Below, piece after piece: positions 33,001 to 45,124 of a stretch of DNA of 64,000 nt (the stretch's first letter is position 1; every line of letters starts with the position of its first letter). The stretch lies in sequence record OR896820.1; one strand, written 5' to 3'. The translations under genes were made by a program, and so were the position numbers. This DNA comes from Escherchia phage Stokescottia. Below the pieces are notes generated by a model. It ran no database searches, was not told the DNA's origin, and saw only the letters and a program-made list of their open reading frames with translations.

Positions 33001-33224
33001 ATATTCATAAATTAGGGAACAGCGAGCCGATTACGCTGAGTGCAGAATCCCAACCGGAGCGCATTGAATAGAGTCGGTGGGTTAGTTGTAAAACTAGTAC
33101 ACAGGGGGCGGCAATTCCGGTTAGTGGCTAGAACGTGTAAAATGAGGCGTCTGAAACCTCTCCCCTAAACTCTTCTCTAATTTATAAATAGTGGGGTGTG
33201 GAAATCACTTATGTAGTAACACTG

Positions 33225-33295
33225 CCGTCCTAGTATAATTGGTATTATCAAGCCGTAACTGGTGGAAGATGTAGGTTCGAATCCTACGGTCGGTA
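33225..33295 (+). ncRNA. degenerate tRNA-like element
   Basis: Canonical T-arm GTAGG TTCGAAT CCTAC but no canonical acceptor or anticodon stems. Confidence 0.25.
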
Positions 33296-37505: not shown

Positions 37506-37583
37506 GGTTCTCAAGCTCATATGGTATGAGCACCCGGCTCATAACCGGAAGGTACGTAGGTTCGAATCCTCGGGGAGCCACCA
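37506..37583 (+). tRNA. tRNA with CAT anticodon (Met or Ile2)
   Basis: Acceptor GGTTCTC/GGGAGCC, D-stem GCTC/GAGC, anticodon loop CTCATAA; T-stem imperfect. Confidence 0.55.
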
Positions 37584-38086: not shown

Positions 38087-38163
38087 GGGGGTGTAATCGA
38101 ATTGGCATAGGTACTGGACTTAAAATTCAGGTTTTGTGGGTTCGAATCCCACCACCACTACCA
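38087..38163 (+). tRNA. tRNA-Leu(TAA), atypical short variable loop
   Basis: Anticodon loop CTTAAAA, T-arm GTGGG TTCGAAT CCCAC, encoded CCA; one acceptor mismatch; 5-nt variable loop. Confidence 0.5.
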
Positions 38164-40340: not shown

Positions 40341-40423
40341 GGGTCGTTAGCCAAGCGGTTTGGCGGCGGATTGTTAATCCGTGTCGAAAGACAACGTAGG
40401 TTCGAATCCTACACGGCCCGCCA
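40341..40423 (+). tRNA. tRNA-Asn(GTT) with extended variable hairpin
   Basis: Acceptor GGGTCGT/ACGGCCC, D-stem GCCA/TGGC, loop TTGTTAA, 13-nt variable region GTCGAAAGACAAC, CCA. Confidence 0.6.
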
Positions 40424-42138: not shown

Positions 42139-42217
42139 AGATCGCTAGCTCAATAGGTTTAGTAGCATCCGACTTTTAATCGGAAGGTTCTGGGTTCGAG
42201 TCCCAGGCGATCTACCA
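42139..42217 (+). tRNA. tRNA-Lys(TTT)
   Basis: Acceptor AGATCGC/GCGATCT, anticodon arm TCCGA CTTTTAA TCGGA, CCA. Confidence 0.7.
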
Positions 42218-42587: not shown

Positions 42588-42664
42588 GCGTGATTGATGG
42601 AATTGGCATACATACCGTCCTTAGAAGTCGGGTTTTGAGGGTTCGAATCCCTTGTCACGCACCA
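42588..42664 (+). tRNA. tRNA-Leu(TAG), atypical short variable loop
   Basis: Acceptor GCGTGAT/GTCACGC, loop CTTAGAA, T-arm GAGGG TTCGAAT CCCTT, CCA; 5-nt variable loop. Confidence 0.5.
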
Positions 42665-44468: not shown

Positions 44469-44690
44469 ATGCACGTTTTTGAGTTTCGTAATAAAAGTAC
44501 CGATAAACGAGTTATTGTTATTGGAGAAACATACCGAGCATATGAACAAACTGACGGCTCTGTTATCCTGAATGATGAGAAAGGGGGTTTTAGCTTTTAT
44601 CCCAAAGAAACTTACGAAGAATTTCGTACAAAGTTTCTTCTACCAGACTGGCTAGAAGTAGCGCAGCAACGAGAACCCGAAGATGGCTGA
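44469..44690 (+). CDS. hypothetical protein
   Basis: 73-aa ORF. Confidence 0.4.
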   Translation: MHVFEFRNKSTDKRVIVIGETYRAYEQTDGSVILNDEKGGFSFYPKETYEEFRTKFLLPDWLEVAQQREPEDG

Positions 44691-44855
44691 TAACCTAAAA
44701 GTCAAGATCGATAAACAAAAGAAACGTGTAGAAGTAGAGATTGGTGAAGAACGTGTAGCCTTCACCTTTGAATTTCTACAACAAATGGCAATGACAGTCA
44801 TGACTGATAAGTCTCCTGTTATTGAAAAAGAAATCCCGTTGAAATAACGGGTTCT

Positions 44856-44942
44856 GCTGGGTTGGCAGAATGGTTGAATGCACCTGATTTGTAATCAGGA
44901 GGAGTAATCCCATTGCAGGTTCGAATCCTGTGCCCAGCACCA
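44856..44942 (+). tRNA. type-II tRNA (long variable arm) with apparent TGT anticodon
   Basis: Acceptor GCTGGGT/GCCCAGC, 3-bp D-stem with 11-nt D-loop, anticodon arm CCTGA TTTGTAA TCAGG, 15-nt variable arm, CCA. Confidence 0.5.
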
Positions 44943-44956
44943 ATTTAAGGACTAGT

Positions 44957-45124
44957 ATGTTTAAACTGTTAGTAGTTATCTGGTATAGTCAATCAAATAG
45001 AGCGAATACCTCCCACGTTATAGACTTTAATACTAAAAATGAAGCTGAAAAAGCATATGCTAATTTAATAGAACGTAATAAAGAATCTCGTAGTATAGTT
45101 TATGAAGTGACTAAACTTTATTAA
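44957..45124 (+). CDS. hypothetical protein
   Basis: 55-aa ORF from the first ATG after the tRNA. Confidence 0.3.
   Translation: MFKLLVVIWYSQSNRANTSHVIDFNTKNEAEKAYANLIERNKESRSIVYEVTKLY

What the first reader, a model, noticed from the sequence alone, without database searches (positions are those of the whole stretch)
44856..44942. Type-II tRNA body carrying an apparent TGT (Thr) anticodon
This tRNA has a 3-bp D-stem with an 11-nt D-loop and a 15-nt variable arm, the architecture of Leu, Ser and Tyr tRNAs. The hand-folded anticodon arm CCTGA TTTGTAA TCAGG places TGT at positions 34-36, which is not an anticodon of any type-II family. It could be a non-canonical decoder, a mischarging tRNA, or a Tyr-like tRNA with an altered loop.
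Basis: partly seen in the sequence, partly recalled or inferred. Interest (0 to 1): 0.6.

Follow-up and report, generated by a model that had tools for sequence, protein, structure and literature searches.

The report
Long-armed threonine tRNA in T5-like phage
This is a real, conserved phage tRNA that reads the threonine codon ACA but has the long-armed body normally found only in tyrosine, leucine and serine tRNAs; it most likely still carries threonine, close relatives sit in some bacterial chromosomes, and its unusual shape may help the phage survive host enzymes that cut the normal threonine tRNA.

Summary
Window 44856-44942 (+) is an 87-nt tRNA with a 3-bp D stem, an 11-nt D loop, a standard 7-nt anticodon loop reading UGU, a 15-nt variable-arm hairpin (A-GGA-GUAA-UCC-CAUU) and an encoded CCA. 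The window is a T5-like phage tRNA array. The gene belongs to a conserved family: 18 distinct sequences, 98% of pairs kept, and 14 of 23 pairs changed on both sides, including all three variable-arm pairs. Members occur in about 100 T5-like phages (where it alternates with a 75-nt short-armed allele), in Aeromonas T4-like phages, in metagenomic phage tRNA arrays, and in Acetobacteraceae/Rhodospirillaceae chromosomes. It carries the ThrRS identity set (G1-C72, C2-G71, G35, U36, A73) and lacks the Ser and Tyr sets, so mischarging is unlikely. The body is Tyr-like, and its loop differs from a Tyr loop by a one-base shift. Its anticodon arm is almost identical to E. coli thrU and keeps the cleavage motifs of PARIS AriB and P2 OLD. 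Phage Bas33 carries this allele and, in published data, needs only extra tRNA-Lys to escape PARIS. I infer that the tRNA is functional and escapes AriB through features outside the cleavage site. No direct biochemistry exists, and no paper I could search describes this architecture.

The parts
44856..44942 (+). Whole tRNA gene: tRNA-Thr(UGU) with a class-II (long variable arm) body; CCA encoded
   Evidence: ARAGORN; Rfam RF00005 58.9 bits; own covariance model 112.2 bits
44856..44862 (+). Acceptor stem 5' strand GCUGGGU. It pairs with 44932-44938 (GCCCAGC). G1-C72, C2-G71, U3-A70 and G4-C69 are the same first four pairs as E. coli thrT
   Evidence: Sequence; thrT sequence; all 7 pairs kept in 18 of 18 sequences, 5 pairs with changes on both sides
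44865..44881 (+). D arm: 3-bp stem GCA/UGC, 11-nt loop GAAUGGUUGAA with G13.A22, A15, U16 (no position 17) and G18G19
   Evidence: Sequence; register table. This segment was fixed by the search patterns, so its conservation across members says nothing
44883..44899 (+). Anticodon stem-loop CCUGA UUUGUAA UCAGG. It matches E. coli thrU (ACUGA CUUGUAA UCAGU) at 15 of 17 positions
44890..44892 (+). Anticodon UGU (positions 34-36); reads ACA
   Evidence: ARAGORN; ACA is 24.5% of Thr codons in the window's ORFs
44892..44897 (+). U36-A-A-U-C-A41: the published recognition and cleavage motif of the PARIS nuclease AriB (cut between 40 and 41), intact here. C28UG30 / C40AG42, the paired CNG motif cut by P2 OLD, is also intact
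   Evidence: Motifs from PMC12409363 and PMC12445682; sequence
44900..44914 (+). Variable arm, 15 nt: A44, stem GGA (44901-44903) / UCC (44908-44910), GNRA tetraloop GUAA (44904-44907), linker CAUU (44911-44914) ending in U48, which pairs with A15
   Evidence: Sequence; all 3 stem pairs change on both sides across 18 homologues, 94% paired; tetraloops GUAA/GCAA/GAAA/GAGA/GUGA (AUAA in one member; no clear hairpin in L020); 15-48 is A-U in 9 and G-C in 4 of 13 sequences
44915..44931 (+). T arm GCAGG UUCGAAU CCUGU (G49.U65)
   Evidence: Pair 49-65 occurs as G.U, G-C and A-U; 50-64, 51-63 and 52-62 change on both sides
44939..44942 (+). Discriminator A73 and encoded CCA
   Evidence: Sequence
44683..44847 (+). 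Upstream small ORF (54 aa) ending 8 nt before the tRNA. Its 3' end contains the hairpin CCCGUU-GAAAUA-AACGGG and is shared by phages carrying either Thr allele, which marks this as one locus
   Evidence: annotated in relatives; the same sequence lies upstream of T5's type-I allele
44957..45124 (+). Downstream small ORF (168 nt), co-directional. No + strand terminator lies between it and the tRNA
   Evidence: annotated as a hypothetical protein in slur09 and Bas33

Best explanation
It is a working phage tRNA-Thr(UGU) built on a class-II, tyrosine-tRNA-like body. The host ThrRS charges it through the usual determinants (G1-C72, C2-G71, G35, U36), and it reads ACA (and, if U34 is modified as in the host, ACU and ACG) in an AT-rich phage that uses these codons heavily. 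It is one of two interchangeable alleles at the same locus in T5-like phages. The other is a 75-nt short-armed tRNA-Thr whose anticodon stem is mutated at the site cut by the host PARIS nuclease AriB. The long-armed allele keeps a host-like anticodon arm, with both the AriB and the P2-OLD motifs intact, but differs from host thrU everywhere else: D loop, variable-arm hairpin and T arm. I propose that this foreign body, most plausibly the variable-arm hairpin, keeps Toprim tRNA nucleases from docking. The hairpin leaves the core between the cut strand (40-43) and the 15-48 / D-loop 16-17 region that the published AriB model contacts. The tRNA would then replace the cleaved host tRNA-Thr(UGU) during infection. 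What is shown here: the gene, its fold, its conservation and covariation, its identity elements, its distribution, the allele pair and the intact motifs. What is inferred: charging with Thr, function in vivo and escape from AriB (from published Bas33, Bas34 and T7 phenotypes combined with my sequence checks). What is hypothesis: that the variable arm is the resistance determinant, and that the lineage arose from a tRNA-Tyr by a one-base shift of the anticodon loop plus acceptor-stem changes.
For: Real tRNA. Selection on the whole cloverleaf including the variable arm: 98.0% of cells paired, 14 of 23 pairs changed on both sides, 0 of 500 shuffles as high, slid controls at most 42%; the tertiary 15-48 pair switches A-U to G-C together. 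ThrRS determinants (listed in PMC9976931): C2-G71 in 18 of 18 and G1-C72 in 17 of 18; G35/U36 present; the first four acceptor pairs equal E. coli thrT. It is the only Thr tRNA in the array. ACA is 24.5% and ACU 49.7% of Thr codons. A close relative (85% identity) sits as a single gene among housekeeping genes in Acetobacteraceae/Rhodospirillaceae genomes, which argues for an ordinary translational role. Anticodon arm 15 of 17 identical to thrU, with UAAUC|A and CUG/CAG intact. Host tRNA-Thr(UGU) is a prime target of AriB and the preferred target of P2 OLD. Natural experiment: Bas33 (HildyBeyeler) carries this allele with one base changed in the variable-arm linker, a long-arm Asn, and no Lys(UUU). 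The paper reports that Bas33 is rescued from PARIS by T5 tRNA-Lys alone and that T7 needs Lys+Thr. Bas34, which I find lacks Thr and has a broken chimeric Asn, needs all three. AriB needs contacts beyond the cleavage site, since a T5 tRNA-Lys with the E. coli site restored is still not cut, and the model places the second monomer on D-loop U16-U17. In this window the only two long-armed tRNAs with non-class-II anticodons are Thr(UGU) and Asn(GUU), both PARIS-target isoacceptors; by chance 3/153, about 0.02, a post hoc figure.
Against: No aminoacylation, cleavage or expression data exist for this allele. The published 'T5 tRNA-Thr' experiments most probably used T5's type-I allele. The Bas33 argument is indirect: phages differ in how they tolerate tRNA depletion, and T5Mos needed plasmid-borne Thr although it encodes its own. 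The variable arm pre-dates any phage use if the Alphaproteobacteria copies are ancestral, so it need not be an adaptation to nucleases. Other differences from thrU (C32->U, 27-43 A-U->C-G, the D loop lacking position 17) could equally explain resistance. Long arm and intact motif do not always go together: PX29, L016/L017, L020 and L023 have a long arm and also altered motifs. Long-armed Trp tRNAs exist, and Trp is not a known PARIS target. A73 with A15-U48 and G18G19 is part of the E. coli Leu identity set, so some leucylation of the T5-like copies cannot be excluded. As a class-II synthetase, ThrRS approaches from the variable-loop side (my own knowledge), so an extra arm might reduce charging.
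Confidence: 0.68

Rival explanations
1. It is a genuine Thr tRNA, but the long arm is inherited baggage with no defence role. The lineage happens to have a Tyr-like body and ThrRS tolerates it. The allele persists in T5-like phages because it supplies ACA/ACU decoding and because tRNA cassettes in this region are shuffled by recombination and homing endonucleases. Any nuclease resistance would come from small changes such as U32, the 27-43 pair or the D loop.
For: Chromosomal copies with the same arm sit in housekeeping context in Alphaproteobacteria. The tRNA region is recombination-prone: the SP3 Thr/Met hybrid, the Bas34 Asn/Met hybrid, several HNH homing endonuclease genes in the T5 tRNA region, and both alleles common, about 310 against about 100 records. 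Long arms also occur on Trp tRNAs, which are not known PARIS targets.
Against: The hairpin is actively maintained: 3 of 3 pairs covary and the loop is nearly always GNRA, though that could reflect folding needs alone. The cleavage-site sequence is fully intact, yet Bas33 behaves as if its Thr supply survives PARIS. AriB is reported to need distal contacts. The same hairpin design appears on Asn(GUU), another AriB target, in 637 phage records.
Confidence: 0.3
2. It acts as a decoy: a tRNA-like RNA that keeps the nuclease recognition motifs in order to bind AriB/OLD unproductively and protect host tRNAs, and it contributes little to translation.
For: Both nuclease motifs are intact. The PARIS authors themselves raise the possibility that some viral tRNAs act as competitive inhibitors when overexpressed.
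Against: The full ThrRS identity set, the encoded CCA, a canonical T loop and U33/A37 are all conserved. Chromosomal relatives exist in bacteria. It is the only Thr tRNA in a phage with heavy ACA/ACU use. For another phage tRNA-Thr, rescue from OLD worked by replacement and not by protecting the host tRNA.
Confidence: 0.07
3. It is a mischarging or recoding tRNA. LeuRS, SerRS or TyrRS would recognise the class-II body and insert the wrong amino acid at ACA, as nematode nev-tRNAs do with Leu.
For: Class-II body. A73, A15-U48 and G18G19 in the T5-like copies overlap the E. coli Leu set. Precedent: nev-tRNAs (PMC3333845).
Against: C2-G71 and A73 contradict the Ser set (G2-C71, G73). U34 and G35 contradict the Tyr determinants. 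A15-U48 is not conserved across the family: it is G15-C48 in PX29, L016, L017, L023 and the cellular copies. What is conserved are the Thr determinants. As the sole ACA reader after host tRNA cleavage, a mischarging tRNA would corrupt the proteome, yet Bas33 plaques under PARIS with only Lys added. Single-copy chromosomal relatives would be hard to maintain.
Confidence: 0.05
4. It is really a tRNA-Tyr whose loop was mis-read: the anticodon is GUA in a shifted or enlarged loop.
For: The loop UUUGUAA contains GUA, and the body is Tyr-like.
Against: Reading GUA as 34-36 would require U31-C39 and other mismatches in the stem (sequence). ARAGORN and Rfam both give a 5-bp stem and a 7-nt loop with UGU. 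Stem pairs 28-42 and 29-41 covary in the UGU register. A normal tRNA-Tyr(GUA) is present in the same array.
Confidence: 0.01

Closest known systems
E. coli tRNA-Thr(UGU) (thrU), and the 75-nt type-I tRNA-Thr(UGU) of reference phage T5 (T5t03)
   Same: Same anticodon, G1-C72, C2-G71 and A73. The anticodon arm matches thrU at 15 of 17 positions. It occupies the same phage locus as T5t03, with the same upstream ORF end.
   Different: Both known tRNAs have a 4-bp D stem and a 5-nt variable loop; this one has a 3-bp D stem, an 11-nt D loop and a 15-nt variable-arm hairpin. T5t03 has U39->G in the AriB motif (UAAGCA); this allele keeps UAAUCA.
Bacterial tRNA-Tyr(GUA) (class II)
   Same: 3-bp D stem with G13.A22; D loop of the GAGYGGYYRAA type; variable arm of 1 nt + 3 bp + 3-4-nt loop + 3 bp + 3-4 nt; A73; G1-C72. 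It is the best-scoring canonical class-II tRNA against the family model (68.1 bits, against at most 54 for Ser and Leu). The anticodon stems are nearly identical in L029.
   Different: The loop is UUUGUAA (UGU), not CUGUAAA (GUA). The acceptor has C2-G71 instead of G2-C71. The TyrRS determinants G34 and U35 are absent.
Nematode nev-tRNAs (PMC3333845) and bacterial allo-tRNAs (PMC5389517)
   Same: Long-variable-arm tRNAs carrying anticodons outside Leu, Ser and Tyr.
   Different: nev-tRNAs keep Leu identity and are charged with Leu. allo-tRNAs have 8/4 or 9/3 acceptor/T helices and, from my own knowledge, are Ser-like. This tRNA has the normal 7/5 geometry and carries the identity set that matches its anticodon.
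Nuclease-evading phage tRNAs: T5 tRNA-Lys(UUU) against PARIS AriB (PMC11464382, PMC12409363); phage tRNA-Thr(UGU) against P2 OLD (PMC12445682)
   Same: Same isoacceptor as a prime target of both nucleases, and the same phage family. Bas33, which carries this allele, behaves as if its own tRNA covers the Thr requirement under PARIS.
   Different: The described escape routes are substitutions at the cleavage or recognition site and a shortened anticodon stem. Here both sites are unchanged. The word 'variable' does not occur in PMC12409363, PMC12445682, PMC11464382 or PMC10264068.
Long-armed phage tRNA-Trp(CCA) (Erwinia phage Hena1) and tRNA-Asn(GUU) (T5-like, T4-like and other phages)
   Same: Hena1 Trp shares the D arm, the T stem GCAGG/CCUGU and the variable-arm layout C-GGG-GAAA-CCC-CAUU (79% identity over positions 10-76). 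The Asn tRNAs carry a 3-4-bp hairpin (GAAA or GCAA loop in most copies seen) with a 3-4-nt linker and a host-like anticodon arm.
   Different: They have different acceptor stems, anticodon stems and discriminators, each matching its own amino acid (Trp: A1-U72, G73, CCA). The Asn copies have a 4-bp D stem.

Membership tests
tRNA (Rfam RF00005) | Cloverleaf with a conserved T loop, scoring above the gathering threshold | tested here: met
   58.9 bits against 29; ARAGORN
Class-II (long variable arm) tRNA architecture | Variable region longer than about 10 nt that forms its own stem-loop | tested here: met
   15 nt; the GGA/UCC stem plus GUAA loop covaries in 3 of 3 pairs across 18 sequences
Class-II (long variable arm) tRNA architecture | 3-bp D stem with an unpaired 13-22 and an enlarged D loop | tested here: met
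   GCA/UGC, G13.A22, 11-nt loop
tRNA-Thr (E. coli ThrRS identity set, PMC9976931) | G1-C72 and C2-G71 in the acceptor stem | tested here: met
   Present in the window. C2-G71 in 18 of 18 and G1-C72 in 17 of 18 family members. Same first four pairs as E. coli thrT
tRNA-Thr (E. coli ThrRS identity set, PMC9976931) | Anticodon bases G35 and U36 | tested here: met
   UGU at 44890-44892. Conservation across the family says nothing here because the search patterns fixed these bases
tRNA-Thr (E. coli ThrRS identity set, PMC9976931) | Is actually aminoacylated with threonine | not testable with these tools
   Only indirect: the Bas33 phenotype under PARIS
tRNA-Ser (E. coli SerRS identity) | G2-C71 (absolutely conserved in E. 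coli tRNA-Ser) and G73 | tested here: not met
   C2-G71 and A73; rule from PMC9976931
tRNA-Ser (E. coli SerRS identity) | A long variable arm of Ser-type size and orientation | tested here: inconclusive
   The arm is present but only 3 bp and 15 nt. The phage's own tRNA-Ser variable regions are longer, in genes of 89 and 90 nt. Orientation cannot be computed here
tRNA-Tyr (bacterial TyrRS identity) | A73 and G1-C72 | tested here: met
tRNA-Tyr (bacterial TyrRS identity) | Anticodon U35 (with G34) | tested here: not met
   Positions 34-35 are U and G; rule from PMC9976931
tRNA-Leu (E. coli LeuRS identity) | A73, the A15-U48 Levitt pair, G18G19 and A20a in the D loop | tested here: inconclusive
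   A73, A15-U48 and G18G19 are present in the window. By my numbering of the D loop, position 20a is U, not A. A15-U48 is replaced by G15-C48 in many family members, so it is not a conserved feature of the family
allo-tRNA (PMC5389517) | 8/4 or 9/3 acceptor/T-stem geometry | tested here: not met
   7-bp acceptor stem and 5-bp T stem
Phage tRNAs that evade nucleases by anticodon stem-loop mutation (PMC10264068, PMC11464382, PMC12445682) | Substitution at the nuclease recognition or cleavage site relative to the host tRNA | tested here: not met
   U36AAUC|A41 and C28UG30/C40AG42 are identical to E. coli thrU. The only differences in the arm are C32->U and 27-43 A-U->C-G

The most novel reading that the evidence does not exclude
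A whole lineage of threonine tRNAs with a class-II, tyrosine-type body exists in Alphaproteobacteria chromosomes and in phages of Gammaproteobacteria. It would have arisen from a tRNA-Tyr by a one-base shift of the anticodon loop plus an acceptor-stem identity swap. Enterobacterial phages would deploy it, along with similarly long-armed Asn and Trp tRNAs, because the extra arm makes a tRNA with a fully host-like anticodon arm unreadable to Toprim anticodon-stem nucleases (PARIS AriB, P2 OLD). That would be a structural route of immune evasion distinct from the cleavage-site mutations described so far.
Probability: 0.3. Interest if true: 0.8.

Novelty: new variant of a known kind. Interest (0 to 1): 0.6.

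Why it matters
Textbooks restrict the long variable arm in bacteria to Leu, Ser, Tyr and Sec tRNAs, where it serves as an identity mark. A conserved, covarying long-armed tRNA that carries the threonine identity set, in both phages and bacterial chromosomes, is a natural exception. It shows that ThrRS can accept, or has adapted to, such a body, and it offers a concrete example of how a tRNA might change amino-acid identity in nature.

It also bears on a current question in phage defence. Host tRNA-Thr(UGU) is a main target of two Toprim nucleases, and published escape variants are all explained by cleavage-site mutations. This allele has the sites intact, yet a phage carrying it (Bas33) behaves as if its own Thr and Asn supply survives the attack. 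That makes the question of what else AriB and OLD read on a tRNA directly testable, using two natural alleles at one locus. In practice, it also warns that isotype calls for phage tRNAs based on body architecture will disagree with calls based on the anticodon.

Tried and rejected
1. The first IMG/VR pattern scan had one N too many and found nothing. The corrected scan found only 8 loci, all matching in contig length to isolate genomes already seen in GenBank.

2. BLAST of the 87-nt tRNA against 28 Gb of E. coli genomes gave no match even at E<=10. I attribute this to database size, not absence. I fetched thrU, thrT, tyrU and asnT by coordinates instead.

3. I first assumed that the 'T5 tRNA-Thr' used in the PARIS paper was this gene. 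The T5 reference shows a different, 75-nt type-I allele at the locus, so I dropped that direct evidence and replaced it with the Bas33/Bas34 comparison. The amber-suppressor notes in the T5 record also refer to the T5 alleles and were not used for this gene.

4. I guessed that IrisVonRoten was Bas34; it is Bas32. Bas34 is SelmaRatti.

5. The idea that 'long arm' and 'mutated cleavage motif' are mutually exclusive strategies is rejected: PX29, L016/L017, L020 and L023 have both.

6. 'Phage-only family' is rejected. A strict pattern found nothing in 185,579 species genomes, but a looser one found 8 Alphaproteobacteria genomes.

7. 'Ser-derived body', suggested by BLAST hits to phage tRNA-Ser D arms, is downgraded: the covariance model and the variable-arm layout favour Tyr.

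8. MAFFT misaligned the variable arms, and my simple hairpin finder chose wrong helices for the T5-like arms. I replaced both with a covariance-model alignment.

9. The single-sequence MFE fold is not a cloverleaf and was not used.

10. The Rfam sX4 (22.8 bits against 70) and anti-hemB hits are below threshold. In the printed alignment, sX4's best-matching columns lie within the tRNA.

11. Supplementary files of the two key papers are not held, so I could not see their figure S3 or the phage tRNA library list.

12. Eight literature searches found no description of a long-armed tRNA-Thr (a ninth attempt failed on a term that was too short). The 1980s T5 tRNA papers are not in the library, so prior description there cannot be excluded.
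Full report
**What is there.** The window is part of a T5-like phage genome (Demerecviridae). A 2.5-kb stretch around the finding is 92-97% identical to many Salmonella and Escherichia Tequintavirus/Epseptimavirus genomes. Positions 33.2-45.9 kb hold an array of 21 ARAGORN tRNAs plus two Rfam-only hits. ARAGORN calls tRNA-Thr(tgt) at exactly 44856-44942 (+), 87 nt, and Rfam's tRNA model scores 58.9 bits with an 11-base insertion in the variable region. Read directly, the gene is GCUGGGU UG GCA GAAUGGUUGAA UGC A CCUGA UUUGUAA UCAGG AGGAGUAAUCCCAUU GCAGG UUCGAAU CCUGU GCCCAGC A CCA. It has a 3-bp D stem with G13.A22, an 11-nt D loop, an ordinary 7-nt anticodon loop with U33 and A37, the anticodon UGU, and a 15-nt variable region. 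That region folds as 1 nt + GGA/UCC + GUAA + CAUU. Relatives annotate the gene simply as tRNA-Thr. It lies between two small co-directional ORFs with no + strand terminator nearby.

**It is a conserved, structured gene family.** I collected homologues by BLAST and by pattern scans of IMG/VR, metagenomes and GTDB genomes and obtained 18 distinct sequences. I aligned them to a covariance model built on my proposed structure. In that alignment 98.0% of pair cells form standard pairs, against 84.3 +/- 1.1% in shuffles (0 of 500 as high) and at most 42% when partners are slid. Fourteen of 23 pairs change on both sides. All three variable-arm pairs change on both sides (GGA/UCC, CC/GG, CCC/GGG, UGG/CCA, and a 5-bp GAGGC/GUCUC). 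The loop is almost always a GNRA tetraloop: GUAA, GCAA, GAAA, GAGA or GUGA. One member has AUAA, and L020 has an 11-nt variable region with no clear hairpin. The tertiary 15-48 pair switches from A-U to G-C together. Two caveats apply. The D arm and the YUUGUAA loop were fixed by my search patterns, so their conservation means nothing. The alignment is also fitted to the model.

**Where it occurs.**
- About 100 T5-like phage records carry it at 90% identity or more.
- T4-like Aeromonas phages PX29 and Ah1 (Straboviridae) have a copy 78% identical to the window gene, with compensatory changes.
- Several metagenomic phage tRNA arrays carry it. In L018 a 91-nt long-armed Thr(UGU) sits next to a 74-nt short-armed Thr(UGU).
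- Eight Acetobacteraceae, Roseomonas, Rhodospirillaceae and unclassified Alphaproteobacteria genomes each have one 83-86-nt copy. It is 85% identical to the window gene and has the same T arm and a C-UGG-GUAA-CCA-CAC arm.

In the three cellular loci I examined, the flanking ORFs encode MoeA, Lon (next to tRNA-Val), an NTP-transferase, an FAD oxidoreductase and cytochrome b561, and I saw no phage or integrase domains. So the architecture is not restricted to phages. I could not check whether it is the only UGU isoacceptor in those genomes.

**Two alleles at one locus.** Reference T5 has a different gene at this position, behind the same upstream ORF end. It is a 75-nt short-armed tRNA-Thr(UGU) whose anticodon arm reads U36AAGCA41. 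About 310 T5-like records carry that allele. The same split holds for Asn. T5 has a 78-nt short-armed Asn with an altered arm. The window has an 83-nt Asn with a GUC-GAAA-GAC hairpin and an anticodon arm identical to E. coli asnT except C32->U.

**Which amino acid.** The published E. coli identity sets (PMC9976931) give the following.
- Thr needs acceptor pairs plus anticodon bases. G1-C72, C2-G71, G35 and U36 are all present. C2-G71 is invariant in 18 of 18 and G1-C72 holds in 17 of 18. The first four acceptor pairs equal E. coli thrT.
- Ser needs G2-C71 and G73, and both are absent.
- Tyr needs U35, which is absent.
- Leu needs A73, A15-U48, G18G19 and A20a. The window copy has the first three, but the family does not conserve A15-U48.

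The gene is the only Thr tRNA in the array. The phage uses ACA for 24.5% and ACU for 49.7% of its Thr codons. In E. coli ACA is the rarest Thr codon (my own knowledge). I conclude that it is a genuine Thr acceptor. This is an inference from sequence, not a measurement.

**Origin of the body.** Against the family model, the next best hits after family members (82.7 bits or more) are the Hena1 tRNA-Trp (78.2) and an Acetobacteraceae tRNA-Tyr (68.1). All Ser and Leu tRNAs score 54 or less. The D arm and the variable-arm layout match bacterial tRNA-Tyr. In genome L029 the Tyr arm A-CGGA-CUGUAAA-UCCG-U and the Thr arm C-CGGA-UUUGUAA-UCCG-G differ essentially by a one-base shift of the loop. Erwinia phage Hena1 carries a Trp(CCA) tRNA on nearly the same body. 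It has the same T stem and a C-GGG-GAAA-CCC-CAUU arm, together with the Trp features A1-U72 and G73. The scaffold has therefore been re-targeted more than once.

**Link to anti-phage defence.** Host tRNA-Thr(UGU) is a prime target of the PARIS nuclease AriB, which cuts between positions 40 and 41 in the motif U36AAUC|A41. AriB's secondary targets include Asn(GUU) (PMC12409363). [quoted passage not shown] Escape variants described so far are explained by substitutions at these sites or by a shortened stem.

The window tRNA matches thrU at 15 of 17 anticodon-arm positions and keeps both motifs. The PARIS paper reports that Bas33 and Bas34, two T5 relatives, are PARIS-sensitive. Bas33 is rescued by T5 tRNA-Lys alone, Bas34 needs Lys+Thr+Asn, and T7 needs Lys+Thr.

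I checked the genomes.
- Bas33 is HildyBeyeler. It carries this long-armed Thr with one base changed in the variable-arm linker, a long-armed Asn with a host-like loop, and no Lys(UUU).
- Bas34 is SelmaRatti. It has no Thr, and its 'Asn' is a chimera of the long-armed Asn 5' part and a Met(CAU) 3' end with a broken acceptor stem.

The simplest reading is that Bas33's own long-armed Thr and Asn keep working while PARIS is active. They would then be functional and would escape AriB despite intact cleavage sites. AriB is known to need contacts away from the site: a T5 tRNA-Lys with the E. coli site restored is still not cut, and the AlphaFold model puts the second monomer on D-loop U16-U17. The variable arm leaves the core between the cut strand (40-43) and the 15-48/16-17 region, so a steric block is plausible. 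This last step is hypothesis. The word 'variable' does not occur in any of the four defence papers I read.

**What weakens the defence reading.**
- There is no direct assay on this allele.
- T5Mos needed plasmid-borne Thr although it encodes a Thr tRNA.
- The arm probably pre-dates phage use, given the chromosomal copies.
- U32, the 27-43 pair or the D loop could be the real determinant.
- Several family members combine a long arm with altered motifs.
- Long-armed Trp tRNAs are not linked to any known nuclease.

A neutral 'inherited body' explanation therefore stays a serious rival for the role of the arm, though not for the identity of the tRNA.

**Novelty.** The gene is annotated in about a hundred records, and phages carrying it have been used in experiments, so the gene as such is not new. 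I found no description of the class-II body on a Thr tRNA, its conservation with covariation, its presence in bacterial chromosomes, the allele pair, or the intact nuclease motifs. This comes from eight successful literature searches and six papers read. The pre-genomic T5 tRNA literature is not in the library. I therefore rate it a new variant of a known kind, of moderate to high interest.

Noticed in passing
window 38087-38163 and 42588-42664: Both tRNA-Leu genes (UAA and UAG) are only 77 nt with a 5-nt variable loop, so they have short-armed (type-I) bodies for an amino acid that normally uses long-armed tRNAs. Bas33 has the same alleles. Reference T5 and phage SSP1 carry a normal 85-nt long-armed Leu(UAG) instead. 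This is the mirror image of the Thr case. Type-I tRNA-Leu charged by LeuRS is known in Streptomyces (PMC6614811, seen).
   Followed up: partly
window 40341-40423: tRNA-Asn(GUU) is 83 nt with a variable-arm hairpin GUC-GAAA-GAC + AAC. Its anticodon arm is identical to E. coli asnT except C32->U, and the AriB site UAAUC|C is intact. tRNA-Asn genes similar to it occur in 637 phage records, including T4-like Klebsiella, Enterobacter and Serratia phages, Vequintavirinae and Pseudomonas jumbo phages. The copies I read are long-armed (PX29 82 nt, Hena1 86 nt, Bas33 86 nt). Reference T5 has a 78-nt short-armed Asn instead.
   Followed up: partly
L003 2992-3078 (Erwinia phage Hena1) and L023 1651-1735 (metagenome): Long-armed tRNA-Trp(CCA). 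The Hena1 copy shares the D arm, T stem and variable-arm layout with the Thr tRNA and has the Trp features A1-U72 and G73.
   Followed up: partly
L029-L036 (Acetobacteraceae, Roseomonas, Rhodospirillaceae and uncultured Alphaproteobacteria genomes): Each has a single chromosomal 83-86-nt tRNA-Thr(UGU) with a UGG-GUAA-CCA variable arm. Housekeeping genes flank it in the three loci examined. I could not check whether it is the only UGU isoacceptor in these organisms.
   Followed up: partly
L014 401-480 (Salmonella phage SP3) and L028 9001-9083 (Bas34 / SelmaRatti): Hybrid tRNA genes made by deletions between neighbouring tRNA genes: the Thr 5' half fused to the Met(CAU) 3' part in SP3, and the long-armed Asn 5' part fused to a Met(CAU) 3' end in Bas34. 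Both have broken acceptor stems. The Bas34 gene is annotated as tRNA-Asn, but ARAGORN does not call it.
   Followed up: yes
L018 1902-2070 (metagenome contig Ga0308160_10001114): A 74-nt short-armed Thr(UGU) with an altered arm (UAACCC) lies directly next to a 91-nt long-armed Thr(UGU) that has a 5-bp variable-arm stem and an intact UAAUCA. They sit in an array with four tRNA-Pro genes.
   Followed up: no
window 33224-33295 and 37506-37580: Two Rfam tRNA hits (35.5 and 40.3 bits) that ARAGORN does not call. The second has a CAU anticodon loop, an imperfect T stem and an encoded CCA, and corresponds in position to T5's tRNA-Ile2(CAU) next to Ser(GCU). The first has no CCA and an odd anticodon arm.
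   Followed up: partly
window 42139-42217: This phage's tRNA-Lys(UUU) reads U36AAUCG41 in the anticodon arm. It differs from the AriB site UAAUC|A only at position 41, whereas T5's resistant tRNA-Lys reads UAAACC. Its sensitivity to PARIS is an open question.
   Followed up: no
window 44835-44851: The hairpin CCCGUU-GAAAU-AACGGG overlaps the stop codon of the upstream ORF, 5 nt before the tRNA. On the minus strand it scores as terminator-like because a T-rich run follows it. It is conserved upstream of both Thr alleles. It might be a processing or termination signal.
   Followed up: no
L025 (reference T5, NC_005859 24000-40000): The T5 record annotates seven stable or tRNA-like RNAs of unknown function within the tRNA region (RNAIII, RNAI, RNA1, RNA2H, RNAIV, RNA2, RNA3) and four HNH homing endonuclease genes (hegA, hegC, hegD, hegE) among the tRNA genes. 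I did not look for their counterparts in the window.
   Followed up: no
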